Shown: piece by piece, positions 17,981 to 49,494 of the stretch
Layout: every line of letters starts with the position of its first letter
Numbering within the stretch: position 1 is the stretch's first letter
Virus record (IMG/VR): IMGVR_UViG_3300025115_000013
Coordinates: 1 to 54,915 of that record
Reading direction: 5' to 3' (one strand)
Source of the DNA: a virus
Taxonomy: Duplodnaviria; Caudoviricetes
DNA: 54,915 nucleotides
Notes under the pieces: generated by a model
Seen by the model: the letters and a program-made list of their open reading frames with translations, nothing else
The model's database searches: none
What the model was told of the DNA's origin: nothing
Program-made: the position numbers and the translations under genes

Positions 17981-18072
17981 GCACGAAAGCGGGCTAAAAT
18001 TGAAGGATTTTTATAAGTCATTGATTCTAAAGGAAATGTATTTTTAGCCCACTTTCGCTAAGTCATTGATTC
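17981..18072. repeat. ~90-bp repeat copy 1 with internal inverted repeat and two IHF-consensus boxes
   Basis: GAAAGCGGGCTAAAA..TTTTAGCCCACTTTC; TAAGTCATTGATT at 18014 and 18059 (=WATCAANNNNTTR on minus strand). Confidence 0.8.
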
Positions 18073-18074
18073 AA

Positions 18075-18752
18075 TTAACTTACGACTAAGTTAGGGTAAC
18101 GTTGAGCTAAGAAATTAAAGAACTCTTTTGACCAATATTCATGTGCAGATGGCCCGGGATGGATTCCATCATTTTCAAAATCGTTAATCTTAGTGGCCAG
18201 GTCTGTAATGTTTGGGCTATTAAATATAAAATTCCAATCAAGTTGGTCAGAATACTTCCCTAAATCATTAATATAATTTTGGTAAAATGAAAAAGCATAC
18301 GGTATATTACGTGATTTCAAGTAACTCTCTAAACTTAACATATTATAAAAGCTTTTCGCAGCATGATCTAATAGATCTTGATATTTAAAATATGCACGAT
18401 AAACATTGCTATTCAATAATGGATCAAGATTTTTATGACCGACACCAAACACCCAGTTTTGCTGTGCATATCGGTGTCCTCTAATATATTGATTACCACT
18501 AATATACCCTGATTGTTCAAATTGATTTATATCACTAACTCGAATATCTACTCGCTCTAAGCCGGACCACATAATCAACACTAAATCATACTGTCGTTCT
18601 TGTAATTCTGACATCGTGGCGTTACTAATGTATGTGTTTCCAGCAGCAGACATTGCTAAATTTATTAATTCAGCGTTAAACTGTTTAGCAATATGATTTG
18701 CCCAACTAAAGTCTGGTTGTGTAAAACTACATCCGTTAATTAAAATCTTCAT
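18075..18752 (-). CDS. SGNH/GDSL hydrolase-like protein
   Basis: NGCSFT, AGN.YI, MWSG..R, DGIHPGPSAH. Confidence 0.7.
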   Translation of the reverse strand: MKILINGCSFTQPDFSWANHIAKQFNAELINLAMSAAGNTYISNATMSELQERQYDLVLIMWSGLERVDIRVSDINQFEQSGYISGNQYIRGHRYAQQNWVFGVGHKNLDPLLNSNVYRAYFKYQDLLDHAAKSFYNMLSLESYLKSRNIPYAFSFYQNYINDLGKYSDQLDWNFIFNSPNITDLATKINDFENDGIHPGPSAHEYWSKEFFNFLAQRYPNLVVS

Positions 18753-18810: not shown

Positions 18811-18900
18811 GCGTGAAAGTGGGCTAAAATTGAAGGATTTTTGTAAGTCTTTGTTTCTAAAGGAGATTGGTTTTAGCCCACTTTTTGTAAGTCATTGAAA
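18811..18900. repeat. ~90-bp repeat copy 2
   Basis: near-identical direct repeat of 17981-18072. Confidence 0.8.
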
Positions 18901-26364: not shown

Positions 26365-27672
26365 TCAGTAACCATATTTATGCAAAAATTCCGCAAACTC
26401 CGGAGCATACTCTAAAATTGAATTATTCCTAACCTGCTCGTAAGTATTTAAAAATTTAACTAGCCCAAAACGTTCTTCTTCTGCATTTAAAGGTATATGC
26501 ATATTCTCTAGTAACCGTTTATACTCATATACTCGATTTGCAATAACAGAATCTACTTTAGAAAACTCTCGAATATTCACAACTGTTTTCGTATCCGGTA
26601 AATTGTTTTTCTTAATAAGAGTGTCTAATTTCTGTATAGCAATTTCTTTAAGGTTATTCGGAAGAAGTTCAATTCTTAGCACCGAAGGCTTTTGTAATAT
26701 GTTACACGACTCAACCGGTATCTTGTTGTCAATGGAAAACTGTAACAGCTCATCTAAATAAAAAATTGTAAATACGTTCGGTGTAATTCTTAAGGTTAAA
26801 ATAAGGGATGGGTGCTTATCTCGTAATTCTACAAACTTCTGGATGTTAGTTTTAATTTGTTCAACGTCTGATGGGTAACGAATGTAGTTGTTTAATGGGT
26901 TAGTCGATTCGATGCTAATACCCAAATGGAACTCTTTAAACCGAGGAATAATTCTTTCTATCTCAGGATTATAAATGGTTGCATTAGTAGTAGTTCCGAC
27001 AATAACGTCAGTTACATTAGCATCAATTAATGCATCGCATATTTCGTATGTTTCTTTAATAAAAAGAGTTTCGCCGCCGAGCAAATGTAAATAACGCAGC
27101 CCCGATAACTGTTTTAACTCATTAAGGAAACGATTAAAAGTTTCTGTATTTTTAACCCACGGAGTTAACGAAACAGTGTTGAAAAATTTATCATCGCTCT
27201 TTATTTGCTTAAAGGTAGAGTTTAAAAACGAACTATATGTTGGACTGCACATTACACAGCCAAGGTTGCAAGTATTACCTAAGTCAATTTGTAAATTGGT
27301 TAACTCCGAATCGGCAGCACCATTATTCTGCTCGCTGTATGTAAAGTGTTTGCTATATGGTGCTAAGTAGAACGACTTAGGATACGAGTGCAAAATTTTT
27401 ACAAAATGCAACGATTTTGCACGGCCGCTTAGTTTATTGTTATTGTCCTCGTAATAACAATCTTGGCACCACACATTACCAAACTTTAACATAGAATTAC
27501 GAACTTGCCTCATTTCGTCGCTATGGAAATACTCGTTCATAGTCATCGATCTGATGTTATGGGTCGGCACAAACCCATGCTTAAACCACCGACAAGGAAT
27601 AAAATCACCCGCCGGGTTAATACGGATGTGATTCCACGGAGCACTGCAAAAATGAGCAAGATTCAGGGGCAT
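26365..27672 (-). CDS. radical SAM protein with N-terminal twitch/SPASM-like domain
   Basis: FCSAPW..PC, CQDC, CNLGCVMC, LGGETL, YIRYPS. Confidence 0.87.
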   Translation of the reverse strand: MPLNLAHFCSAPWNHIRINPAGDFIPCRWFKHGFVPTHNIRSMTMNEYFHSDEMRQVRNSMLKFGNVWCQDCYYEDNNNKLSGRAKSLHFVKILHSYPKSFYLAPYSKHFTYSEQNNGAADSELTNLQIDLGNTCNLGCVMCSPTYSSFLNSTFKQIKSDDKFFNTVSLTPWVKNTETFNRFLNELKQLSGLRYLHLLGGETLFIKETYEICDALIDANVTDVIVGTTTNATIYNPEIERIIPRFKEFHLGISIESTNPLNNYIRYPSDVEQIKTNIQKFVELRDKHPSLILTLRITPNVFTIFYLDELLQFSIDNKIPVESCNILQKPSVLRIELLPNNLKEIAIQKLDTLIKKNNLPDTKTVVNIREFSKVDSVIANRVYEYKRLLENMHIPLNAEEERFGLVKFLNTYEQVRNNSILEYAPEFAEFLHKYGY

Positions 27673-31036: not shown

Positions 31037-31335
31037 ACTATTTTGGGTTATAAGGGATAGTTCCCCCAGAGTTATCATGCTGCTAGAGCATATACCTCAT
31101 TGTTAGCTGCGTTTGCAGTTATAGTTTTGTTTTCTTCGACCGGGTCTGCCGACCTTCATGGCTATGAGCCATGCGTCAACACAGAATACCCCAATCCTAC
31201 GGCTTCAAACTCTTGCCGAGCGCCATTCGTTCTATTTAACCCTTTGTCGATTCCTTTCACCCCCTCAGTGGTGGAGGTGGCGGCATCCGAGAGCCGCGTC
31301 CAAAAAGCTCTTAATAACTAAGGTTTACGCTGTTT
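31037..31335 (-). ncRNA. ssrA: circularly permuted (two-piece) tmRNA, tag ANAANNEVYALAA
   Basis: acceptor piece ending CACCTCCACCA (31269) precedes GGGGGTGAAAGGAATCGAC (31264); tag ORF 31116-31075 after ATAACT. Confidence 0.9.
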
Positions 31336-32745: not shown

Positions 32746-32860
32746 ACCATATAGAAGTAGATTGAACGGCGTAGGTTATAGTGCCGCTCATCTGGCAGGA
32801 CGACTTGAGAACGCTTCGGCTGCCACCGTATGGCCTCTCGTCAATCTGCTTTTATATGGT
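32746..32860 (-). ncRNA. putative helix-closed small RNA
   Basis: ~20-bp terminal inverted repeat ACCATATAGAAGTAGATTGA/TCAATCTGCTTTTATATGGT around a GC-rich core. Confidence 0.5.
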
Positions 32861-32940
32861 GCCCGGGGCCGGACTCGAACCGGCACGCCATAAGCGAGGG
32901 ATTTTAAGTCCCTTGCGTCTACCTATTTCGCCACCCGGGC
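32857..32940 (-). tRNA. tRNA-Leu(TAA)
   Basis: cloverleaf, variable arm, CCA. Confidence 0.93.
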
Positions 32941-33121: not shown

Positions 33122-33742
33122 CTATTGTTTTGGACAAGATTCTAATTTTTCAATTTCATCTAACAATTGTAAAATTCTCCCAACAATTCCTTCGCTGTAC
33201 GTTCTGTTAAACACCGATTCATCACTGCCCGGAGACGAAACAAGTTGACATATACTTGATAGTATCGGGTACTGTATTCGAACCTCCCATTCACCATTTT
33301 CTGTCATTGATAATGAATGGGAGTTGCGTGTTGGGATGTTCAATGAATGAAATAATTTTTCTTTTTCATGATCGATATCCATATTATACGAACCGAAGTT
33401 AAAAAGTACCCCGTTTTTTAACATCTCAACCCCGTTTATAATCATTGACGAGATAGTCAATGACATATTTTCTACTATTTTATTATCAACACATACTACA
33501 TCGTTATCTGTTTTGTTACAGAATTTAATAGATAGAAAAAACTCAGACTGAATCGGGTCAACGGTAGTGCTAGTAATCTCTGCTTCGTTAATAACCAGGT
33601 CATTAAAAATTACGTTATTGTTAATACTAACGCAAACCAAAGGCCAGTTAGTTTTAGCCGAAACCGAAGCTAATTTTAAAATAACGTCGGCTTTTTTATG
33701 ATTGTATAATTCTTTTATCTCAGGCGGAATTAGTGTTTTCAT
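33122..33742 (-). CDS. hypothetical protein
   Basis: 206-aa ORF coupled to radical SAM gene. Confidence 0.55.
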   Translation of the reverse strand: MKTLIPPEIKELYNHKKADVILKLASVSAKTNWPLVCVSINNNVIFNDLVINEAEITSTTVDPIQSEFFLSIKFCNKTDNDVVCVDNKIVENMSLTISSMIINGVEMLKNGVLFNFGSYNMDIDHEKEKLFHSLNIPTRNSHSLSMTENGEWEVRIQYPILSSICQLVSSPGSDESVFNRTYSEGIVGRILQLLDEIEKLESCPKQ

Positions 33743-35243
33743 AATAATTGTCTAAATACTTTTGTAAATTGACCTCAATTTGTGTTAAATTTAAAAGTTG
33801 TTGATTACCAACAAAATATCCTAATTCAACCGTTACAAAGTGCTGTATAAGTCGTCTCCTAACTCGCTCGGGATACGTATACAACGGATCCGACTTAACA
33901 GTCCAGAATACTTTAGAATCTGCATTTTCAATTTGATACTTGTCTTTATTTTTTACTAAAGGCATAAATTCATTCAAAAACAAAGGGGGGCCCATATCTA
34001 TCCGTACTGTCCCATTTGCTACGTATTTTTGACAAGCTATGATAAACCGAAGAGTATTTAGAAACCTCTCTTCCGTTTCATTATAAAACCCCGAAAACAT
34101 CAACAATGTTGATTTAAGATTGTGTTGAGATAGTTGCTCTAGTTCATCTAATGTATCTTCTACCGTAACTTGCTTTCTCATTGCAGCCAGAACGTCGTTA
34201 TCTCCACTTTCTGTGCCTATAGTTAGATTATGTGCACCCGATGATACCAGTAAACTATAATGATCTGCTCGCAGTTTGCTCTGCGGCCTTGTTATGTATT
34301 GACCGATCCACGTAATTTTTTTATCGTTTGATGAATTATAATCTGATATTTTTTCTAATAATTCATAAAAAGTTTTTGTAGACCCATTTACTAAACTATC
34401 AGTAAAATCAAAATTGTATATCTGATACCGGTTAATTTGTAGTACCATTTCAGAAAATACATCGGTTGCTGTTCTATACTTGTATTTTCCAAAAAATCCT
34501 GCAACATCACAGAACGTGCAGTCCCTAACACACCCTGTACTACCTGTAATAAGCAGAGCTTTATTTCCGTGCCATAGATATAGATCTAGATCATAATCAT
34601 CATAATTAGGCACCGGGGATGTGTAGTTACTGTTAACAATGTTAAATTTATCAAAGGTACAATCTGCCGTGTTGCTTCTGACTTTGGTCGACAAAATTTT
34701 CGGTAACTCGGTAAACTCATTACTAAGAATTGCATAATCCGCGAACTTTTTATTCGAAAGCAAGGCATGGAACTGCGTTGATTCCTCAAGTCTTGATATT
34801 AGCCCAGTTAACGAAGTGCTATTAATTATAGCTCCTTTTCCTCCAATTATAACTGTAACTTCCGAAATAGTTTTAATGTATTTAGATAGTACAAAAGCTG
34901 CTCGCTGCTGTAAATTAGAGAACACACTAAGACCCACAATTGTGGTCTTATTGTTAATATAAGTGTCATACACATACTTTGCCCACACAGTTAACGATTC
35001 TATGTCTTCAATGGTTACCTCGTAAGGTTCAAAGATTTTTACCTCATTGATATATCTATCTAAACGTCTGTTACATTTGTTAAATAGATCTATCCCTAAG
35101 TCAATGGTTTTGCAAGAAAAACCATAGCTTTCTACTGCGCCTTTTAGTATTGCAGGAGCAGCAGGTGGCTTTTCATTAAATGCTGAAGGCAACGAAAAAA
35201 TTATAATATCAACCATATCTAGTATATATCCCTTAACTAACAC
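33720..35243 (-). CDS. B12-binding-domain radical SAM protein
   Basis: PPAAPAILK, VGLSVFS, IIGG, GCVRDCTFC, FTDSLVNG, IGTESG. Confidence 0.88.
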   Translation of the reverse strand: MLVKGYILDMVDIIIFSLPSAFNEKPPAAPAILKGAVESYGFSCKTIDLGIDLFNKCNRRLDRYINEVKIFEPYEVTIEDIESLTVWAKYVYDTYINNKTTIVGLSVFSNLQQRAAFVLSKYIKTISEVTVIIGGKGAIINSTSLTGLISRLEESTQFHALLSNKKFADYAILSNEFTELPKILSTKVRSNTADCTFDKFNIVNSNYTSPVPNYDDYDLDLYLWHGNKALLITGSTGCVRDCTFCDVAGFFGKYKYRTATDVFSEMVLQINRYQIYNFDFTDSLVNGSTKTFYELLEKISDYNSSNDKKITWIGQYITRPQSKLRADHYSLLVSSGAHNLTIGTESGDNDVLAAMRKQVTVEDTLDELEQLSQHNLKSTLLMFSGFYNETEERFLNTLRFIIACQKYVANGTVRIDMGPPLFLNEFMPLVKNKDKYQIENADSKVFWTVKSDPLYTYPERVRRRLIQHFVTVELGYFVGNQQLLNLTQIEVNLQKYLDNYYENTNSA

Positions 35244-40580: not shown

Positions 40581-40677
40581 TGGTGGACTATGAAGGAATC
40601 GAACCTTCGAGCTGCCGTCGCATATTCAGTACCATACTTAAAGGGAATCGAACCCCAATACTCGCCATTTATAGCCC
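40581..40677 (-). ncRNA. tRNA-like RNA: Ala-type acceptor, two T-loops, no anticodon arm
   Basis: GGGCTAT/ATAGTCC-A-CCA; GTTCGATTC twice. Confidence 0.7.
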
Positions 40678-40761: not shown

Positions 40762-40885
40762 TGGTGCCGAGAGTAGGATTCGAACCTACAGTGATTGCCA
40801 AATCTAGCATTCTCTTGCGGAGAATACAACGGAATCGAACCGTATAACGCCTGCCGGCGTGTGTCTACCGTTTCACCATCCCAGC
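40762..40885 (-). ncRNA. tRNA-Leu-like body with ~50-nt structured insert replacing anticodon loop
   Basis: GCTGGGA/TCTCGGC-A-CCA, Leu-type D arm, extra ACGG-TTCGATT-CCGT hairpin. Confidence 0.7.
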
Positions 40886-41061: not shown

Positions 41062-41136
41062 TGGTGCCTAGCGACAGACTTGCACTGTCCTCTGATGCTT
41101 ACAAGACATCTATGACGCTATCTACACTTGCTAGGC
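41062..41136 (-). tRNA. tRNA-Thr(TGT)
   Basis: CT-TGT-AA loop, CCA. Confidence 0.8.
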
Positions 41137-41143
41137 AAAATTT

Positions 41144-41480: not shown

Positions 41481-41693
41481 GATGTTAGTAAATTACTACT
41501 AGTCTACGGTGTTTTATAGTTGCTGTTGCAGCAACCCACGGGTAGAAAAAGAAATCTAAGTAAAACTGTAATAGCAATATCGGCACTACATTACAAACAT
41601 TGTAGTATGATTCATATTGTTTCTGCATCTTATACCGATGCAAGCTTGTTACATTTGCGGTCATAATATGTATTTACCGCAACAGTAAGTATT

Positions 41694-41881: not shown

Positions 41882-41953
41882 TGGCCTCCCGTACACGAGT
41901 TGAACGTGTCATAGATGATTCGTAGTCATCAAGCCGGTTCCCCCGGACAGGAG
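41882..41953 (-). tRNA. tRNA-Arg(ACG), compact D arm
   Basis: CT-ACG-AA loop, CCA. Confidence 0.78.
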
Positions 41954-42695: not shown

Positions 42696-43289
42696 ATGTC
42701 TATTTATAAACCTACATTTCTTTACATAAAACAACATACCGTTACAGGTAAATTGTATTTTGGTAAAACTACTAAAAACCCCGAATCATACGCAGGATCA
42801 GGGAAATATTGGTTAGCCCACATTAACAAACATGGTAAAAATCATGTCGAAACATTGTGGTATTGTTTATTCTACGATAAAGACGACTGTGTTTCTTTTG
42901 CCCAACATTTTTCTAAACAACACGATATAGTTAACTCTGATGACTGGGCTAACTTAATGGTAGAAAATGGTTTAAATGGCGGGTTAGTTAAAAACAATTA
43001 CTTTAAAATATACAATACGATACCAAGAACAGAGGCCCAAAAGTACAACAGATCAGTTCAACAACAAGGGAAAGCCTCAAAAACGTACCCTGTTATAATC
43101 AATAATATCGAATATCCGTCTATTACTGCTGCTGGAAGAGCATTTAACTTAACCGATGCAGCAATTCACCATTGGATTAAACTCGGGAAAGCCACTAGAA
43201 AAGAAAGAGAATTTAGAAGTCCTCGATATAGCTGCATTTCTTGTCGCAAAGAGCTTTCTACAAAAACGTCCCATAGTTGTGTACTATAG
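42696..43289 (+). CDS. GIY-YIG (Seg-like) homing endonuclease with NUMOD1-like domain
   Basis: FLYIKQH..LYFGKT..YAGSGKYW, ENGL.GG, YPSITAAGR. Confidence 0.82.
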   Translation: MSIYKPTFLYIKQHTVTGKLYFGKTTKNPESYAGSGKYWLAHINKHGKNHVETLWYCLFYDKDDCVSFAQHFSKQHDIVNSDDWANLMVENGLNGGLVKNNYFKIYNTIPRTEAQKYNRSVQQQGKASKTYPVIINNIEYPSITAAGRAFNLTDAAIHHWIKLGKATRKEREFRSPRYSCISCRKELSTKTSHSCVL

Positions 43290-43627: not shown

Positions 43628-43702
43628 TGGCGACCTAGGAGGGAATCAAACCCTCGTCCCCTGATAGACAGTCAAGGATAATAATCACTATAAGACTAGG
43701 CC
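43628..43702 (-). tRNA. tRNA-Asp(GTC)
   Basis: cloverleaf, G73, CCA. Confidence 0.85.
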
Positions 43703-43947: not shown

Positions 43948-44067
43948 AAATCCTTTCTCAGCTCGAGGTTATGTCGTCTGAGACTGTGCAAATTAAACCA
44001 CCGCAGCGGGTATTGCACTTTAGCAGTATCAGTGACTGCTCGGCACTTGCATAAGTAAACAACTTAG

Positions 44068-44141
44068 GGGTGACCGGTGGGTAACGCTCCCACTCTACCT
44101 CTTTCACAGAGAGGGTTGCTAAACTTTTACAATACGGTCAC
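44068..44141 (-). tRNA. tRNA-His(GTG)
   Basis: C73, U at -1, ends CCT rather than CCA; flanked by extended helix. Confidence 0.82.
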
Positions 44142-44162
44142 ACTTAAATTGTCTACTGCATT

Positions 44163-44245
44163 TGGTGGGTGCCTGTGGTTTCGATCCACTCCCCGAAGGA
44201 CCAGTTTTACAGACTAGTTGCTGAAGCCATCAGCTTTCGACACCC
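44163..44245 (-). tRNA. tRNA-Tyr(GTA)
   Basis: variable arm CC-TTCG-GG; CCA. Confidence 0.82.
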
Positions 44246-44254
44246 GCTATTATA

Positions 44255-44340
44255 TGGTGGGTTAGGTTGGATTCGAACCAACTAAGCCTGAGGCAAGAGA
44301 TTTACAGTCTCCCGAGGATCGCCGTCTCCCCTGCTAACCC
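44255..44340 (-). tRNA. tRNA-Tyr(GTA)
   Basis: variable arm, CCA. Confidence 0.88.
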
Positions 44341-44346
44341 GTTGTT

Positions 44347-44441
44347 TGGTAGTCCCCCACGGTTACGATCCGTGCCGTTGCAGCCCATCTGACCGCTCTC
44401 CAGAGGATATAAATCTCCGCCGCTCACCAAAGCTGAGGACC
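44347..44441 (-). tRNA. tRNA-Ile(TAT) with long variable region
   Basis: TT-TAT-AT loop, ~25-nt variable region, CCA. Confidence 0.7.
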
Positions 44442-44549
44442 ATCTGTGTTATTTAAATATCCTTTGCAAGACATTTAAGTAACACAGCAGTGATCTAATA
44501 GATTATTATAATTACTGTAATCTATGGATTCAGTTGCTGTCGTTACACT

Positions 44550-45545
44550 TGTTATCAGCCTGAGACTAGAGCTAATACGTTAGACCTTGCGCCGACGATT
44601 ATCACAGCCTTGCGAGCTGCTTTCCGCCCTCTTCCACCATAATCATATAGTAGTCCAACATCGCTGCCTTTTTATACTAGTGGCGTTTCTAGTGTAATGT
44701 ATGACTACTCGGTCTTCTGTCTACCGCCAACCTTGCGGGCTGTGCAGGGCATGACCCCTTACGTGCAACTTCTTACCAACATCCTCTACCTTGCGAGCTT
44801 TGGATGACTCCGTTACCTTGCGGCCGGAGCATTAAGCGATTTTCACCATACATCAGGAACGACTTTGCGTTTGTGTATAAATGGTTGGAATTGAACCAAC
44901 TGCATTCTTCTTAAAAGGAAGACGCTCTACCATAGAGCAACATTTGCAACCTACCTCGAAGAGCGTTCCTTGTTGCTTCATATCCTTTTAGGATACAAAA
45001 TACAACTCTCCGAATACCTTTTGCCTGCCGGCTACTCAGTCGTCTTTCTGGATTAGTGTCCTGTACGCTTGCGCGAGGCCATAAACCCATAAAACTGCAC
45101 AACAGCCTTTCCTTGCGGGGTTGGACCGTTGCACTACCCTTTCTCATACCTGCTAATTAGTTGGTTTGCTAGTGAAGTCAGCACCACCTGTTACTTTCCA
45201 TCTGCTCAAGTTCCCATTGATGCAATCTCAGGCTTGTAAGCAAACGTTCTTTCCACTAACTCTAACTTTACAGTTAGCCCCACCCGTCTTTTAAGTGAGG
45301 CCTGCGTCGCCGCAGTGAGCTGGCTTGCTTAAATGGACCATTACTGGCGCAAGTGCGTAGGCTTCCTTGCTTTGGGCACCTCACGGTGCTTACCCTAATG
45401 ACGTTAAGCCGCCAAAACTCTACAACTTAAAACTTGTTTGCTGAGCTGCATTGCCCAAACCGGGAATCACACTCTTATCCGCTTGACTCAGTTGCTGTAT
45501 ATCTCTATACATGCTCACTATCGTGATACCGAATCAAGTTTCAGC
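44550..45545 (-). ncRNA. large structured ncRNA, GOLLD-like
   Basis: ~1 kb, GC-elevated, no credible ORF, at least 7 CGCAAG tetraloop motifs, inside tRNA array, embedded tRNA; boundaries approximate. Confidence 0.6.
44876..44947 (-). tRNA. tRNA-Lys(TTT) embedded in large ncRNA, no CCA
   Basis: GCTCT-ATGGT-AGAGC D arm, TCTTC-CTTTTAA-GAAGA, GTTGG-TTCAATT-CCAAC. Confidence 0.72.
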
Positions 45546-45552
45546 AAATTCT

Positions 45553-45629
45553 TGGTTGCGGAGGCAGGATTCGCACCTGCGATCTCCGGGTTATGAGCCC
45601 AGCGGGGACGGCTTCTCCCCTACTCCGCG
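45553..45629 (-). tRNA. initiator tRNA-fMet(CAT)
   Basis: C1:A72 mismatch, three G-C pairs in anticodon stem, CCA. Confidence 0.9.
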
Positions 45630-45634
45630 TCAAA

Positions 45635-46930
45635 TTCTTCTCTACGCTCCCCGCCGATATTCTCACCGGGCTTACTTGGTGTATCCTGTGCTCTGTCACA
45701 GTTACATAGAGTCAAGTCAACTTCTTTGATATGCTGTCTCTTCCCTTTTCCTTGTCTTACGGTCCAAGAGTTAGACCATCGCAGTGTCAATTCCGGTACA
45801 ATGAATGATCAATTTGACCAAGCAATGAATTGCCAATCAGGCAGCATATCAAAAACTTTGAGTGGTAACAATAGCGCAGTACAGACTACGATCTCTTACT
45901 GACCCTTTTAAAGAGGCAGTCGTCTGATTTATTCATAGCATGTATTATTCTGACCTGAACCTATTACCAGTTCAACTCTACTATAACCACATTTATTCAC
46001 ACTCAAGGAGGAGTCGAACCTCTTTATAGTCTACGGCTTTTATTTTCCAGGCCCTGCTAGCTAGACAGGCACTGAATGTGAATAAATGTGGTGTCGGTCT
46101 AAGGGATCTATCTCCGACAGTACAGAATTGATTTCAACCACCCTGCGCAGGTTGTCCACTCATTTGTGTCCCTGGCGCATCTGCATCTAACCACATTTAT
46201 TCACACTCCCAGAGAGTTATCAAATTTCTCTGTAACATTTGGATGCATCGAGGGTAATTACTCCTCTCAACCGTCTCCACCGAATGCTGGCGGTTATTAG
46301 ACAGAAATGTGAATAAATGTGGCGTCATATCGTTACCGGTCAGGGCTATTGTCTGACTTCGCATTCTACTAAACATCGATGACCACTTGTGACTAGCAAG
46401 CGTCTAACGATGGAGTTCAAATGCTACTTACCACAAATATAATGGCTTAGCAAGTCTCCTGGACTTTGTATAATGACGCACCATTAACCATATACAATTG
46501 GTGTGCCGTCTCCCGACGGGGTAATAATGTTTGTCAGAATGTTCTCCATAGTCCCGAATCGAACGGGATTATCTGCAAGACAATAGGGTATCCGTACCCT
46601 GGAACATTACGTTGTCGCCTACTGACAAATTCTTGATGATTCTTCTTACCTACCATCACCACCGAGTGGCTAGGCTTCTTAGGGCCAGGAATCTATCATC
46701 AACCTACATCCTAAAGTGATTTCGTCAGTTCTAATCGTTTTGCGAACCAGGCATGGACTCGTAAAATCACTTTAGGATGTCCCCTTGGCATTGCACCAAG
46801 GGATCCTTTGTTTATCGCTACCATCTTTCACTCCACATAAGGAGATCCATACTCCGGTAGGCCGCCCTTTTGCAGGATGTTTTTTTTGGTGCCCTGCGGG
46901 ACTGCGTTCCCCATTAACACCGACCTACTC
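45635..46930 (-). ncRNA. array of helix-closed small structured RNAs
   Basis: long terminal inverted repeats at 45725-45853, 45986-46092, 46190-46322, 46530-46629, 46633-46702, 46706-46780; no credible ORF. Confidence 0.6.
45986..46322. repeat. CCACATTTATTCACA helix used twice (four arms)
   Basis: same inverted-repeat pair closes two different inserts. Confidence 0.85.
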
Positions 46931-46994
46931 TACTACAAATCTCGTCGCTGTTTTTAACTACTCCTTATAACTTGTTGCGTTAATCAGTTTTCGT

Positions 46995-47022
46995 ATTATA
47001 CAGCTTTAAATTTCCTTGTCAA
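46995..47022 (-). promoter_or_regulatory. sigma70 promoter at head of RNA island
   Basis: GG-TTGACA-N16-TATAAT. Confidence 0.8.
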
Positions 47023-47172
47023 CCACTTTCTGAACTTCTTTGCGTGCTTCTTGTAACTGTTTGATTCTACTAACTTTACTTGCTATATACTGTTCAAGCA
47101 TTGCGTCGTTGAGTTCAAACTCACCGCGAGCTGCCCGATCGTTTACTTCTTTGCATATACATTTACTGTGCA

Positions 47173-47586
47173 TTATTTCTTATCCATTCCCAATATTCTG
47201 TTACACTCATCATTCTCTCCCTTATACTTGTCTAAATTCCGAATCGAACTAGTTAGGATTTCTACATTATCTTCACCATATCCAATTAAAGAATTACATT
47301 TTTGGCACAACAACCCACGAACTTTTCCAGTAGCGTGGCAATGATCAACTGCTAATGACCTTTTTAGAGTAGTCTGATGCTTACTGCATATTGCACAGCA
47401 TCCTTTTTGCTCGTTAAACATCGCATTGTACTGGTCTGGAGATAAACCGTAATATTTTTTAAATTGCTATTCCTTGAATAAACACTGGCCTTTCTTTTTT
47501 TCTTCTACTGTCCTGCAAGGGTTACATCGAAATTGATTTGTCCCTGTTTTCTTAAACTCATTACCACAATCTCTACAAATGTTCAT
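47173..47586 (-). pseudogene. endonuclease VII-family homing endonuclease, interrupted (in-frame TAG or two compensating A-run indels)
   Basis: CAIC, LAVDHCHATGKVRGLLCQKCN; upstream CRDC..CNPC in same frame across one TAG. Confidence 0.75.
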
Positions 47587-47603
47587 AATTTATATCTCTA
47601 AAT

Positions 47604-47688
47604 AAAAAACCCGGAGTGTTTAGTTCCGGGTTCCGTTTGCTTATTTGCTGTGGGTTAGCGTTTAACTAGTGCTACCCTCCCGGAACCC
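47604..47688 (-). terminator. terminator/antiterminator pair (attenuator)
   Basis: AACCCGGA-N9-TCCGGGTT-TTTT; competing helix GGGTTCCG (47681-47688)/CGGAACCC (47628-47635). Confidence 0.75.
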
Positions 47689-47820
47689 CAATGTTTTAAT
47701 CTCATATCCACGATCACTATTGCGACTTACATTAGACCATAAACCGAGATCACATAACGGCATAAAGCCTGGCTGTGTGGCAGGTGATGTTCTAAACGAA
47801 TGTAGTGCTATATGTGTCAT
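47662..47820 (-). CDS. putative leaderless attenuator leader peptide (52 aa, all 20 amino acids)
   Basis: MTHIALHSFRTSPATQPGFMPLCDLGLWSNVSRNSDRGYEIKTLGFREGSTS; ATG 7 nt after the -10 box. Confidence 0.6.
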   Translation of the reverse strand: MTHIALHSFRTSPATQPGFMPLCDLGLWSNVSRNSDRGYEIKTLGFREGSTS

Positions 47821-47827
47821 GTTTGAA

Positions 47828-47856
47828 AGTATATTACCTTAATTGTTTTACGTCAA
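47828..47856 (-). promoter_or_regulatory. sigma70 promoter of leader peptide
   Basis: GG-TTGACG-N17-TATACT. Confidence 0.75.
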
Positions 47857-47922
47857 CCACTTTTGGTTAACTATATTTTTACTTATACAGCTATTAAAAA
47901 ACCTGGCTAAAATGTGGTATTT

Positions 47923-49494
47923 TTAACGCTTTTCTCTTGTGTGACCTTTTACTGTATCAACTTTAGTAGTTTGTGCTCTTTTAGGACGGATGTCAACTGA
48001 TGCCCCGGAAGCAATTTGTTCAATCTTATCGTTGATTGCTGCTACCCTCTTGTTACTTGCTACTTCTTTTTCTGCGGTCTTGCTTGCATTTTTGGTTGGG
48101 CTGTACCCAAACGCCATCTTTCCATTAGTGCCAGTAGCAAAATATACTTTGCCTGGATCAAGGACAATTGCTCCTTCAAAATTTGGTGGATACAACGATG
48201 TTAGTTTAGTTGCCACCGCGTTATTGCCTTTTTTACCAACAGTTAGGTAAACCTGGATAACTGGACTAGCATTCACAAACTTAATACACATTTCTCCGAA
48301 CTTTGGATCAGAGTTAATGTCGGCAGCAACAATCTTTGCTAATCCTGCCAGTGCATGATAACCGACACTATAACCCGGCTTCGCTTCCGGATTAAGTAAG
48401 CCCATTAAATGGTCAAGCTCTTTCTTGTCTGCTGCTGTGAGCGAGGTTGCTTGATTTAAAGTTTTTACCCCTGATTTAATCAATTCAAGTATTTTGGTGC
48501 CAACACGCTGCGAGATCATACCTCGCTTTGTGGCATACTTTACAGGAAACTCTACTGATGATGCTGCGCTAATCTCGTCAAGGATCGCTATTTGGTCAGC
48601 ATACTTTGTGATCATCTTCTTTTGTGTCGATGTACCTTTTTCTTTAACATAGTCGATACCATCATACACGTTCTTAATACTTGCTTTAGCACCCTTCTTA
48701 CCCTTACTGCTAATGCCTACTTCAATACCATCCTTAATTACAAAGCTATCTACTAACCCGTTAGTCTTAGAATCTGGGAAAATAATCTGTGAGCCTTTCC
48801 AGTCATCGCCACCTAACACATCTTTGCGGGCTGCTTCTGCCCCCTGGTCTGTAATCATTCCTAACACAAGGGCAATAGGAGCAATAATTTCACCTAGGTC
48901 ATCCTGAATAGCAGGGATCATATCTGCTTTACCTTCAAACACTGGCATCTGTCCGCCTAACAGCATTTGTAAACCAGGTAATAAATCTTTTACCTTGTCT
49001 TTACCTTGTAACGCACTAACAATCTCAAGCGGGCTGTTAAATATTGAGTTAGGAGCAAATAAGTCAGTAGGTTTTAACCCGTGACTTGACTTAATGCTCG
49101 ATCCTTTAGTTAATTGCCAATCTCCTGGTAAGTCGTTGTTCTTCCATTGGCCAGCCATGTCTGTGCTAATTTTCTTAAAGAATCGACAAACGTAAACCCC
49201 ATTGCCGTCATTGTCAGTTAGCGTTAAGATCGCAAACGCTTTTGTACCTGCATTTGGGGTATTTACATATTGGATACCCGGGTAATTAATAACAATCTTC
49301 TGCGCTTCTGTTGCTAATTCGTTGTAATCTTCATACTCACCCGGCATACCCGGAAAATATTCAACCTTCTGGAAGGTTAATACATCGTCTGGATTACTCT
49401 TACTAAAGAATGTGTCTCCTTGATCTCTGTAAAGAAGACCACGGGATGCTTCGGTTAACGTTATTTTTTCAAGTTTGTTCAGGATATCACGCAT
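47923..49494 (-). CDS. hypothetical late protein, possible PD-(D/E)XK fold
   Basis: 523 aa; ATAAATA upstream; LGE..LVDS..ISSKG pattern. Confidence 0.5.
   Translation of the reverse strand: MRDILNKLEKITLTEASRGLLYRDQGDTFFSKSNPDDVLTFQKVEYFPGMPGEYEDYNELATEAQKIVINYPGIQYVNTPNAGTKAFAILTLTDNDGNGVYVCRFFKKISTDMAGQWKNNDLPGDWQLTKGSSIKSSHGLKPTDLFAPNSIFNSPLEIVSALQGKDKVKDLLPGLQMLLGGQMPVFEGKADMIPAIQDDLGEIIAPIALVLGMITDQGAEAARKDVLGGDDWKGSQIIFPDSKTNGLVDSFVIKDGIEVGISSKGKKGAKASIKNVYDGIDYVKEKGTSTQKKMITKYADQIAILDEISAASSVEFPVKYATKRGMISQRVGTKILELIKSGVKTLNQATSLTAADKKELDHLMGLLNPEAKPGYSVGYHALAGLAKIVAADINSDPKFGEMCIKFVNASPVIQVYLTVGKKGNNAVATKLTSLYPPNFEGAIVLDPGKVYFATGTNGKMAFGYSPTKNASKTAEKEVASNKRVAAINDKIEQIASGASVDIRPKRAQTTKVDTVKGHTREKR

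What the first reader, a model, noticed from the sequence alone, without database searches (positions are those of the whole stretch)
45635..46930. 1.3-kb run of helix-closed small RNA modules at the head of the tRNA transcript
Seen: at least six units of 70-135 nt, each closed by an 8-17-bp inverted repeat, with no credible ORF. Two contain isolated T-arm hairpins (GAGG-TTCGACT-CCTC near 46010; TCCCG-TTCGATT-CGGGA near 46560). Inference: a polycistron of stable small RNAs excised with the tRNAs, possibly decoys for host tRNA-targeting defences or Y-RNA-like elbow mimics.
Basis: partly seen in the sequence, partly recalled or inferred. Interest (0 to 1): 0.72.

Follow-up and report, generated by a model that had tools for sequence, protein, structure and literature searches.

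The report
Hairpin RNA modules heading phage tRNA operon
The gene-free 1.3 kb in front of this giant phage's tRNA genes is a chain of folded RNA modules, several of which belong to previously undescribed RNA families shared by related giant phages, but what they do is still unknown.

Summary
Between a perfect sigma-70 promoter (47022-46995, minus) and tRNA-Met lie 1.3 kb with no credible ORF. Four closing helices (B, F, H, J; 15-23 nt arms) exceed chance. The 8-bp closures of C and D do not on their own.

No Rfam family matches. Relatives exist only module by module, in a clade of ~350-kb uncultivated phages that share a GOLLD subtype.
- Motif A (46916-46804) is a new ~110-nt RNA: one copy per genome, usually followed by tRNAs, 14 of 19 pairs with compensatory changes.
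- Module B (46780-46706) follows A in 21 of 21 loci; 15 of 18 pairs covary.
- H and F are divergent members of an ACCA...UGGU hairpin family. In relatives it starts exactly at a tRNA's CCA end in 30 of 45 cases, 21 of them tRNA-Lys.
- D has one homologue.

Best reading: co-transcribed structural or processing modules whose long helices, not their cargo, are the conserved part, probably RNase III-type punctuation. The decoy and Y-RNA ideas are unsupported. Discrete transcripts remain unshown.

The parts
46995..47022 (-). sigma-70-type promoter (TTGACA, 16-nt spacer, TATAAT). The transcript start is inferred near 46988.
   Evidence: 12 of 12 consensus matches, the only such site in 44000-48000. 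My arithmetic gives about 1e-3 expected by chance in that span.
46804..46916 (-). Motif A: a ~110-nt RNA with two hairpins (P1, P2), an invariant GGGCGGCCU linker and a long-range helix P3 that encloses a variable hairpin.
   Evidence: CM R1 scores it 86.2 bits, E 1.2e-22. RNAalifold on 9 sequences: 10 of 19 pairs compensatory. On 27 matches: 95.8% of cells paired, 14 of 19 pairs changed on both sides, 0 of 500 shuffles reach this (that alignment is fitted to the model). No Rfam match.
46782..46802 (-). Small hairpin of about 8 bp between A and B. It is an insertion relative to the other phages.
   Evidence: Folds. It is absent from the A-B junction of the other 20 loci.
46706..46780 (-). Module B: a 17-bp perfect closing helix (18 pairs in my helix scan; up to 21 in the fold) with a 39-41-nt interior. 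It is the hairpin that always follows motif A.
   Evidence: I4. CM R2 gives 44 bits, E 2.4e-7. A 16-21-bp helix follows motif A in 21 of 21 loci. On a MAFFT alignment of 20 sequences, 91.7% of cells pair, 15 of 18 pairs change on both sides, 0 of 500 shuffles reach this.
46633..46702 (-). Module C: closed by 8 bp only. It sits where relatives carry a second hairpin after B.
   Evidence: I19. z = -0.63, and 55 of 200 shuffles fold as well. Relatives have a second hairpin after B. Weak on its own.
46501..46637 (-). Module D: a tRNA-like four-way junction with 8-bp and 7-bp closures, two hairpins and the T-arm at 46568-46552. It has no anticodon loop.
   Evidence: Fold (z = -1.6). One homologue, L235:5529-5670, by nhmmer at E 4.9e-13; blastn gave 79% identity over 106 nt. 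One compensatory C-G to U-A change in the closure and a U-A to G.U change in the T-stem (my reading). Not called as tRNA by ARAGORN defaults or the Rfam tRNA model at E <= 10.
46327..46500 (-). Stretch E: no supported structure or homologue.
   Evidence: Arms of 13 nt at 85% (I8). z = -0.58 for 46319-46465. No nhmmer hit.
46188..46326 (-). Module F: a long hairpin (15 bp perfect, 25 nested pairs with G.U on the minus strand). Its arms are identical to those of H. It starts GCCA.
   Evidence: I5, D1, D2. z = -5.5, 0 of 200 shuffles. Its arms align and covary with the ACCA...UGGU family.
46096..46187 (-). Spacer G. It ends in a small stem followed by ACCA, which runs into H.
   Evidence: z = -0.9. 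One RNA-library contig of run X9 matches 46094-46159 with 6 differences in 66 nt.
45984..46095 (-). Module H: a 20-bp closing helix whose 5' strand starts ACCA. The cargo has small hairpins plus the T-arm at 46023-46007, which abuts the 3' strand of the helix.
   Evidence: I2. z = -4.2, 0 of 200 shuffles. It is a member of the 45 ACCA...UGGU modules, pairing 22 on the minus strand against 19 on the plus strand. The same architecture occurs in 15 other modules of relatives, 10 of them not called tRNA.
45862..45983 (-). Stretch I: no supported structure or homologue.
   Evidence: No similarity to the window's tRNAs.
45717..45861 (-). Module J: closed by 23-nt arms, 19 of 23 complementary.
   Evidence: I1. 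z = -3.1, 2 of 200 shuffles. No homologue found.
45630..45716 (-). Stretch K: the immediate 5' leader of tRNA-Met.
   Evidence: An nhmmer hit to L202 runs from tRNA-Met up to 45725. The pairwise alignment shows little identity outside the tRNA.
45553..45629 (-). tRNA-Met (CAU), the first canonical tRNA of the transcript. It is followed by GOLLD and 36 more called tRNAs.

Best explanation
The 1.3 kb is the transcribed, non-coding head of the phage's tRNA/GOLLD operon. It is built from RNA structural modules that fold on the tRNA-sense strand.

Shown:
- A consensus promoter lies just upstream.
- Motif A is a conserved, covarying ~110-nt RNA present once per genome in a clade of ~350-kb phages, with tRNAs following it downstream in nearly all loci.
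- Motif A is always followed by a long hairpin, B.
- H and F are divergent members of a family of 17-25-bp hairpins (ACCA...UGGU). In relatives these begin exactly at the discriminator-CCA of a tRNA and carry unrelated cargo. In some the cargo is a tRNA-like fold, and other long helices in these loci enclose called tRNAs.

Inferred:
- The helix, not the cargo, is conserved and keeps pairing through compensatory changes, so the helices are the working part.
- The most likely role is as double-stranded punctuation or processing sites. A host RNase III-type enzyme would cut the leader off tRNA-Met/GOLLD and separate neighbouring stable RNAs, as the processing stems of rRNA operons do.
- Motif A is a separate leader element of unknown activity.
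- C, E, G, I and K have no support and may be filler or decayed sequence.
For: Transcription context:
- Promoter with 12 of 12 consensus matches at 47022-46995 on the tRNA strand.
- All 37 called tRNAs, GOLLD and the tmRNA lie on that strand.

Motif A:
- 24 matches at E < 1e-5 in 98 sources.
- One copy in each of 5 of 5 related genomes, 4 of them complete.
- tRNAs follow on the same strand in 21 of 22 loci.
- Covariation.

Module B:
- Follows A in 21 of 21 loci.
- Covaries on an alignment not fitted to the structure. G.U cells occur where the opposite strand would carry A.C.

ACCA...UGGU family:
- 45 distinct modules in 29 of 97 loci. The tRNA-sense strand pairs more in 26, fewer in 6, equally in 13 (sign test p = 5e-4).
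- In 30 of 45 the ACCA overlaps a called tRNA's 3' end by exactly 4 nt. In 19 of 45 the next tRNA begins within -3 to +14 nt.
- 40 of 1045 tRNA 3' ends in this clade begin a hairpin of 17 bp or more, against 7 of 2090 random start points and 0 of 521 tRNA ends in other GOLLD phages.
- The arms of H and F align with this family and differ by paired changes.

Other support:
- Long helices enclose called tRNAs in 15 of 363 inverted repeats. One example is L192's tRNA-Asn, inside about 20 continuous pairs in the fold.
- Cargo sequences of the family are unrelated.
- Precedent: E. coli RNase III takes part in the maturation of T4 tRNAs (PMC4810235, passages read).
Against: - There is no direct evidence of transcripts or cleavage.
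- No RNase III gene was found in the window or in 5 related genomes, so a host enzyme must be assumed and the host is unknown.
- Only about 4% of the clade's tRNAs carry such a hairpin, so it is not a general processing device.
- The window's one canonical ACCA module (32746-32860) pairs better on the antisense strand, 20 against 11.
- F, H, J, E, G and I have no sequence homologue anywhere searched.
- Sense-strand G.U excess over all island hairpins is modest, 148 against 97, and a similar excess is seen outside the islands, 44 against 24.
- The pair counts for motif A come from an alignment fitted to the model.
Confidence: 0.55

Rival explanations
1. The modules are genes for stable small RNAs that act in trans. 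They would be tRNA mimics or decoys, whose elbow or T-arm or sequestered CCA end engages host tRNA-targeting nucleases or tRNA-modifying enzymes, or Y-RNA-like partners of a Ro protein.
For: - T-arm hairpins in H and D.
- 16 helix-closed modules have a T-arm abutting the 3' strand of the helix; 11 of them, including H, are not called tRNA.
- 224 of 1246 T-arm hairpins in the clade lie outside called tRNAs.
- 21 of the 30 CCA-anchored hairpins trail a tRNA-Lys, although tRNA-Lys is only 80 of about 1200 called tRNAs. That tRNA-Lys is a known target of anticodon nucleases is recalled, not tested here.
- Some jumbo phages carry TROVE with a tRNA-like partner (PMC7824862, one passage read).
Against: - The cargo is not conserved across the family; only the helix is.
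- No YrlA or any other Rfam match at E <= 10.
- No TROVE gene in the window or in 5 related genomes, 4 of them complete.
- D and H lack an anticodon loop and fail the tRNA models.
- The tRNA-Lys association may be inherited synteny rather than function.
Confidence: 0.15
2. The long hairpins are selfish or recombinogenic DNA palindromes, like MITEs or attC sites. They would accumulate at tRNA 3' ends and in non-coding leaders because insertion there is tolerated, with no role for the RNA.
For: - The family is multi-copy, with conserved termini and unrelated interiors.
- Its distribution among close relatives is patchy, and F and H have no orthologues.
- F and H carry identical 21-nt arms around unrelated cargo.
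- The tRNA/GOLLD island is itself variable: the genes flanking it in the window lie about 1.1 kb apart in L042.
- Homing-endonuclease genes sit in and beside the array.
Against: - The strand asymmetry favours folding of the tRNA-sense strand, 26 against 6. Folded single-stranded DNA of the same sense would give the same signal.
- Compensatory changes keep the helices paired.
- No tyrosine recombinase was found in 5 related genomes.
- B keeps a fixed position behind motif A in 21 of 21 loci.
Confidence: 0.15
3. Apart from A and B, the stretch is a decayed part of the tRNA array. It would be made of relics of former tRNA genes and their spacers with no present function.
For: - Orphan T-arms occur here and in other gaps of the same array.
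- Similarity to the window's tRNAs is weak: 2 of 100 shuffles reach the score for H cargo, 3 of 100 for F cargo, 6 of 100 for D.
- C, D, E and G fold no better than shuffles.
- E, G, I and K have no homologues.
Against: - Perfect or near-perfect helices of 15-20 bp in F and H, and a 23-nt helix in J, are not what decay leaves.
- D is 79% identical over 106 nt to a copy in another phage, with its stems kept.
- G, E, I, J and K show no similarity to tRNAs.
Confidence: 0.1

Closest known systems
RNase III processing stems that flank stable RNAs in polycistronic precursors (rRNA operons; the phage T4 tRNA cluster)
   Same: Long, nearly perfect duplexes of about 17-25 bp bracket or separate stable RNAs on one untranslated transcript. 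RNase III involvement in T4 tRNA maturation is stated in PMC4810235 (passages read).
   Different: Here each duplex is a self-contained hairpin. It often begins exactly at a tRNA's discriminator-CCA, has a conserved arm sequence, commonly leaves one position unpaired about 8 bp in (my reading of the folds), and carries variable cargo. Only about 4% of the clade's tRNAs have one. Cleavage is untested.
GOLLD and ROOL, large ornate RNAs of phage tRNA islands
   Same: Structured non-coding RNAs encoded among phage tRNAs. Here GOLLD lies 250 nt downstream on the same strand, behind tRNA-Met, as for the env-38 GOLLD (bioRxiv 10.1101/2024.12.08.627333, passages read).
   Different: There is no sequence or model match. 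The modules are small (70-140 nt). Motif A occurs only in phages with one GOLLD subtype, and in 1 of 98 other GOLLD loci.
Bacterial Y RNAs (YrlA) with Ro/Rsr
   Same: A long stem closes the RNA and the inner part contains a T-arm, as in module H. This description of YrlA is recalled, not taken from a call.
   Different: No Rfam match at E <= 10. No TROVE gene. The cargo is not conserved. In H the T-arm abuts the closing helix as in a pre-tRNA.
Stable RNAs C and D (species 1 and 2) of the T4 tRNA cluster
   Same: Small RNAs of unknown function co-transcribed with phage tRNAs. This is recalled; no text or sequence was seen here.
   Different: No comparison could be made. The search found no paper holding the term 'species 1 RNA'.
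Integron attC sites and MITEs
   Same: Imperfect inverted repeats of 70-160 nt with conserved ends and a variable centre, lying between cassettes, with a strand bias in pairing.
   Different: No integrase in 5 related genomes. They are anchored on the tRNA CCA end. No target-site duplication was looked for.

Membership tests
tRNA | A cloverleaf with an anticodon arm that is recognised by tRNA models. | tested here: not met
   ARAGORN defaults and the Rfam tRNA model at E <= 10 call nothing in 45635-46930. With thresholds lowered to 70%, ARAGORN draws H with 3 of 5 anticodon-stem pairs and D with a poor acceptor stem.
Y RNA / YrlA | A match to the family's covariance model. | tested here: not met
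   No Rfam match at E <= 10 in 44300-47300 or in 45980-46330.
Y RNA / YrlA | A Ro/Rsr (TROVE) partner encoded by the same genome. | tested here: not met
   PF05731 is absent from the window (a 16% fragment) and from 5 related genomes, 4 of them complete. The control genomes rang.
Y RNA / YrlA | A long closing stem plus a tRNA-like domain with a T-arm. | tested here: inconclusive
   H has a 20-bp stem and a T-arm, but no D-arm partner was shown, and the T-arm abuts the closing helix.
GOLLD RNA | Contiguity with the GOLLD model and with its 5' domain. | tested here: not met
   The Rfam model covers 44557-45013. RNA contigs and relatives extend GOLLD only to about 45391-45416. tRNA-Met lies between GOLLD and the finding.
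RNase III processing stem | An uninterrupted RNA duplex of about two helical turns on the transcribed strand. | tested here: met
   B has 17 perfect pairs, up to 21 in the fold. F has 25 with G.U. H has 20-21.
RNase III processing stem | Cleavage by RNase III in vivo or in vitro. | not testable with these tools
   No end-resolved reads were available. No phage RNase III gene was found.
Motif A family (defined here, model R1) | A match to the model, with helices P1-P3 and the invariant linker. | tested here: met
   The window at 46804-46916 scores 86.2 bits, E 1.2e-22, full length. It was one of the 9 seed sequences.
CCA-anchored ACCA...UGGU hairpins (defined here) | A helix of 15 bp or more whose 5' strand starts ACCA and whose 3' strand ends UGGU, pairing better on the tRNA strand. 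| tested here: met
   H pairs 22 on the minus strand against 19 on the plus strand. F starts GCCA and is related through arms identical to those of H.
CCA-anchored ACCA...UGGU hairpins (defined here) | The ACCA is the discriminator-CCA of an upstream tRNA. | tested here: not met
   No tRNA is called upstream of H or F. It is met in 30 of 45 family members, including the window's own 32746-32860.
Integron attC-like recombination site | A tyrosine recombinase in the genome. | tested here: not met
   PF00589 is absent from 5 related genomes, 4 of them complete. All 14 control genomes rang.

The most novel reading that the evidence does not exclude
Motif A and the CCA-anchored long hairpins together form an undescribed phage system for handling its own tRNAs. 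The hairpins would cage the 3' CCA end of particular phage tRNAs, above all tRNA-Lys, in a duplex until a double-strand nuclease releases them. The same cut would free a variable, in some modules tRNA-like, cargo RNA. That could time or protect phage tRNA supply against host tRNA-targeting defences. Motif A would be the cis element that marks or protects the head of the long untranslated transcript.
Probability: 0.2. Interest if true: 0.85.

Novelty: new variant of a known kind. Interest (0 to 1): 0.62.

Why it matters
Giant phages carry near-complete tRNA sets together with the cage-forming GOLLD RNA, and how these long untranslated operons are made and used is unknown. This window led to two RNA families that are not in Rfam 15 and that the five paper searches made here did not turn up:
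- a single-copy ~110-nt motif that in nearly all loci has tRNAs following it;
- a family of long hairpins that start exactly on the CCA end of tRNAs, mostly tRNA-Lys.

Both show compensatory base changes. They give concrete, testable handles on tRNA-operon processing in jumbo phages. Through the tRNA-Lys link they may also bear on the contest between phage tRNAs and host anticodon nucleases.

Tried and rejected
Homologue searches for the whole region that found nothing:
- blastn against 50,697 phage records. Only tRNA-Met matched.
- The 523-aa neighbouring protein against phage records, viral contigs and metagenome contigs.
- 80 loci of UvsX relatives. blastn gave 17 hits, all at E > 0.6. These relatives lack the island: 1 of 27 scanned loci has tRNAs, and 0 of 5 contigs hold GOLLD, although the controls did not ring either.
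- 99 GOLLD loci by blastn and 5 whole records.
- A 20-mer of the GOLLD 5' domain in metagenome contigs.
- The two-arm pattern of H/F in viral contigs.
- The 19-mer arm hit only L002, inside apparent coding sequence of a giant-virus MAG. I judged it chance.

Other dead ends:
- Reads: contigs of 4 RNA-library runs laid at 85% or more cover GOLLD and tRNA-Met. On 45652-47003 they give only one 66-nt piece, at 46094-46159. The runs were found through GOLLD and hold relatives, not this phage, so the gap says nothing about expression.
- Sliding z-scores are not informative for complex RNAs. GOLLD itself scores near 0.
- The first control for CCA-anchored hairpins, start points 230 nt upstream at a threshold of 12 pairs, did not discriminate: 47 against 44. 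I replaced it with random start points and higher thresholds.
- K as a conserved leader of tRNA-Met: the identity lies almost wholly in the tRNA.
- G, E, I, J and K as decayed tRNAs: no similarity.
- The CM R2 hit list (246 hits at E <= 1) counts both strands of the same hairpins and any long AU-rich hairpin, so I did not use it as a family count.
- The search of earlier findings returned nothing.
- Paper searches on GOLLD, tRNA islands, T4 RNase III and decoys listed no title or abstract on such modules. Only search listings and the passages named in this report were read.
Full report
CONTEXT

The window is a 54.9-kb fragment of an uncultivated virus, estimated 16% complete. It encodes UvsX-like and DnaB-like proteins. 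All 37 ARAGORN tRNAs lie on the minus strand between 31933 and 45629. Rfam adds a GOLLD RNA at 44557-45013 with an embedded tRNA-Lys, and a permuted tmRNA at 31075-31332, both on the minus strand. The finding (45635-46930) lies directly upstream of tRNA-Met on that strand. A sigma-70 promoter with 12 of 12 consensus matches sits at 47022-46995 on the minus strand. The region is therefore the 5' leader of the tRNA-Met/GOLLD/tRNA transcript.

THE OBSERVATION

I name the units, in 5' to 3' order on the minus strand, A, B, C, D, E, F, G, H, I, J and K.

- B has a 17-bp perfect helix.
- F has 15 bp perfect, and 25 nested pairs once minus-strand G.U pairs are counted.
- H has 20 bp; its one mismatch is a G.U on the minus strand.
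- J has 23-nt arms, 19 of them complementary.

These four are far beyond chance and fold much better than shuffles:
- F: z = -5.5.
- H: z = -4.2.
- J: z = -3.1.
- Windows over B: z = -3.0 to -3.8.

The 8-bp closures of C and D are what chance gives in 1.3 kb. C, D, E and G fold no better than shuffles.

H and F share identical 21-nt arms, four copies in alternating orientation, around unrelated interiors.

Both T-arm hairpins are real and lie on the tRNA strand. Of 39 T-arm-like hairpins in the window, 7 lie outside called tRNAs or the tmRNA, and 6 of those are on the minus strand inside the tRNA island. Chance gives about 2 per window.

No ORF exceeds 61 aa, and 7 ORFs of 42-61 aa in the region match nothing in Pfam or PHROGs. 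No Rfam family matches at E <= 10.

FINDING RELATIVES

Searches with the whole region, with neighbouring proteins and with exact arm sequences found nothing. UvsX relatives at 77-90% identity do not carry the tRNA/GOLLD island next to UvsX. In L042 the genes that flank the island in the window lie about 1.1 kb apart.

The break came from GOLLD. The nearest GOLLD among 99 loci, L148, is 70% identical to the window's. Its upstream 1.8 kb is also ORF-free, carries five long inverted repeats and orphan T-arms, and shares two short blocks with the window. Among 62 GOLLD loci with at least 1 kb of upstream sequence, long inverted repeats run at 0.21 per kb overall. The window (5 in 3.15 kb) and L148 (3 in 1.39 kb) stand out.

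A 20-mer of the GOLLD 5' domain shared by the window and L148 then retrieved 96 loci of one GOLLD subtype, on contigs of up to 364 kb. nhmmer of the leader against all 278 loci held gave 43 hits:
- 6 to module A;
- 1 to module D (L235, E 4.9e-13);
- 36 to tRNA-Met;
- none to B, C, E, F, G, H, I or J.

MOTIF A (46916-46804)

Nine sequences align with 37 invariant columns. RNAalifold predicts three helices, and 10 of 19 pairs are kept through changes on both sides. A covariance model (R1) finds 27 matches at E <= 0.1 in 98 sources, 24 of them at E < 1e-5.

On that alignment 95.8% of cells pair and 14 of 19 pairs change on both sides. No shuffle in 500 reaches this, and slid controls pair at 29-43%. 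The caveat is that this alignment is fitted to the model.

Distribution and context:
- Exactly one copy in each of 5 related genomes, 4 of them complete at 344-364 kb.
- Only 1 of 98 other GOLLD loci has it.
- tRNAs follow on the same strand in 21 of 22 loci, typically about 100-130 nt after A.
- In 11 of 22 loci a perfect terminator-like hairpin with 5-6 U lies 6-23 nt upstream.
- Relative to GOLLD it lies upstream in 14 and downstream in 8 of the 22 loci.
- Three further representatives have no Rfam match over A.

MODULE B (46780-46706)

In 21 of 21 loci examined, a helix of 16-21 bp with a 17-51-nt interior follows motif A at once. In the window it is offset by one small inserted hairpin.

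On a MAFFT alignment of 20 sequences, which is not fitted to any structure, the 18-pair helix is 91.7% paired and 15 of 18 pairs change on both sides. No shuffle in 500 reaches this, and slid controls pair at 33-49%. U.G and G.U cells are frequent in the core of the helix, and non-pairs there are rare. That points to folding of the tRNA-sense strand. Model R2 scores the window's B at 44 bits.

H, F AND THE CCA-ANCHORED HAIRPINS

The arms of H and F align with hairpins of L269, L200 and L184. The ends are the same (ACCA...CACA / ...GUGUG...UGGU) and the middle differs by paired changes.

A scan for ACCA...UGGU helices of 15 or more pairs found 45 distinct modules in 29 of 97 loci, 73-163 nt long:
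- The tRNA-sense strand pairs more in 26, fewer in 6 and equally in 13 (p = 5e-4).
- In 30 of 45 the ACCA is exactly the discriminator plus CCA of a called upstream tRNA.
- In 19 of 45 the next tRNA starts within -3 to +14 nt.
- 21 of those 30 upstream tRNAs are tRNA-Lys, which makes up only 80 of about 1200 called tRNAs.

In this clade 40 of 1045 tRNA 3' ends begin a hairpin of 17 or more pairs, against 7 of 2090 random start points. In other GOLLD phages the figure is 0 of 521.

The cargo sequences are unrelated. The helix sequence is conserved and in many members leaves one position unpaired about 8 bp in, by my reading of the folds.

Some long helices enclose called tRNAs: 15 of 363 inverted repeats, for example a tRNA-Asn inside about 20 continuous pairs in the fold. 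Sixteen modules have a T-arm abutting the 3' strand of the helix, as H does, and 11 of them are not called tRNA.

H and F themselves have no tRNA upstream. The window's one canonical member, 32746-32860 behind tRNA-Leu, pairs better on the antisense strand. That is an exception I cannot explain.

MODULE D

D folds as a four-way junction with a proper T-arm but no anticodon loop. Its copy in L235 matches at 79% identity over 106 nt by blastn. It keeps the stems, with one C-G to U-A change in the closure and a U-A to G.U change in the T-stem. One pair of the first hairpin is broken (my reading). Two sequences cannot prove a structure.

WHAT IT MOST LIKELY IS

Shown: a promoter-proximal, non-coding leader made of RNA modules. 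At least A, B, H and F belong to families kept by compensatory change on the tRNA strand, and D has one homologue.

Inferred: because helices rather than cargo are conserved, the helices are the functional part. Duplexes of 17-25 bp on an untranslated stable-RNA operon are the classical substrate of RNase III. A review states that the E. coli enzyme takes part in T4 tRNA maturation (PMC4810235, passages read). I therefore rate 'processing and punctuation hairpins plus a leader motif of unknown activity' as most likely (0.55).

No RNase III gene is encoded by the window or by 5 related genomes, so a host enzyme is assumed.

RIVALS

- Trans-acting tRNA mimics or decoys (0.15). The T-arms and the tRNA-Lys link speak for it. 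Variable cargo, the absence of TROVE and the lack of any YrlA match speak against it.
- Selfish or recombinogenic palindromes (0.15). The multi-copy family, conserved ends and patchy distribution speak for it. The strand bias, the covariation and the absence of an integrase speak against it.
- Decayed array (0.1). This fits C, E, G, I and K, but not the perfect helices.

EXPRESSION

Contigs of four RNA libraries from soil, river and sediment, laid at 85% or more, cover 44579-45391 and tRNA-Met. Summed contig depth over the GOLLD 5' domain reaches 11,589 in the river run X3. On the finding they give only one 66-nt contig, at 46094-46159.

These runs were chosen through GOLLD and hold relatives whose leaders differ, and contigs cannot show ends. 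This neither supports nor refutes transcription of the leader.

NOVELTY

Neither motif A nor the hairpin families are in Rfam 15. Four paper searches on GOLLD with tRNA and phage, on tRNA islands with structured RNA in jumbo phages, on T4 with RNase III, and on tRNA-like decoys listed nothing that describes them. I read search listings, and passages of PMC6582537, bioRxiv 10.1101/2024.12.08.627333, PMC7824862 and PMC4810235 only. Supplements were not consulted. I class the finding as a new variant of a known kind: structured processing or leader RNAs of stable-RNA operons, and structured RNAs of phage tRNA islands.

Noticed in passing
window 44557-45416 (minus): The Rfam GOLLD model covers only 44557-45013. 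RNA-library contigs from soil, river and sediment (85-100% alike) and related GOLLD loci extend the RNA to about 45391-45416, roughly 860 nt. Summed contig depth over its 5' domain reaches 11,589 in one river run. tRNA-Lys(UUU) is embedded at 44875-44947.
   Followed up: partly
window 32746-32860: A canonical ACCA...UGGU hairpin whose ACCA is the 3' end of tRNA-Leu (32857-32940). tRNA-Pro follows 14 nt after it. Unlike most members it pairs better on the antisense strand, 20 against 11 pairs.
   Followed up: partly
window 40592-40608, 40773-40789, 40828-40844, 41893-41909 (minus): Four more T-arm hairpins lie in gaps of the tRNA array, outside called tRNAs. With thresholds lowered to 80% ARAGORN calls tRNA-like genes over all four sites (40581-40677, 40762-40885, 41882-41953), and others at 41062-41141 and 41511-41598. 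Rfam also calls a tRNA at 43631-43702 that ARAGORN defaults miss.
   Followed up: partly
window 17984-18057 and 18816-18884: Two copies, visibly alike along their whole length, of an intergenic hairpin element with 14-16-nt arms and a 41-42-nt interior. They flank the gene at 18075-18752 and are unrelated to module B.
   Followed up: partly
window 31075-31332 (minus): A permuted (two-piece) tmRNA gene, 90.4 bits, lies at the far end of the tRNA island.
   Followed up: no
window 42696-43289 (+) and 47173-47421 (minus): A GIY-YIG homing-endonuclease-like gene lies inside the tRNA array on the opposite strand. An 82-aa endonuclease VII/HNH gene lies just upstream of the leader's promoter.
   Followed up: no
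L190, L249, L265, L206, L204, L262, L225, L235, L227, L251; 6-23 nt upstream of motif A: The terminator-like hairpin in front of motif A keeps a similar loop (such as ACUAAAAAC) while its stem covaries. It is followed by a recurring UUUUGUA-like stretch. This could be a conserved regulatory or promoter element rather than a plain terminator. In the window the place is taken by the sigma-70 promoter.
   Followed up: no
L229:9704-9801 (minus); L229:1203-1322 and L148:1105-1235: L229:9704-9801 reads by eye as a cloverleaf with a GUG (His) anticodon loop inside a helix extended by about 13 bp, and ARAGORN does not call it. A class-II-like tRNA-like gene with a long extra arm sits inside a 22-24-bp helix in both L229:1203-1322 (called tRNA-Leu) and L148:1105-1235 (not called).
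   Followed up: partly
L184:1737-1765 and 2539-2566; G006: Sigma-70-like promoters are repeated inside the relative's leader. A 50-nt element containing one of them recurs at 5 other places of the 192-kb record.
   Followed up: no
window 26365-27672 and 33720-35243 (minus): Two radical-SAM proteins, one with a SPASM domain, are encoded beside the tRNA island.
   Followed up: no
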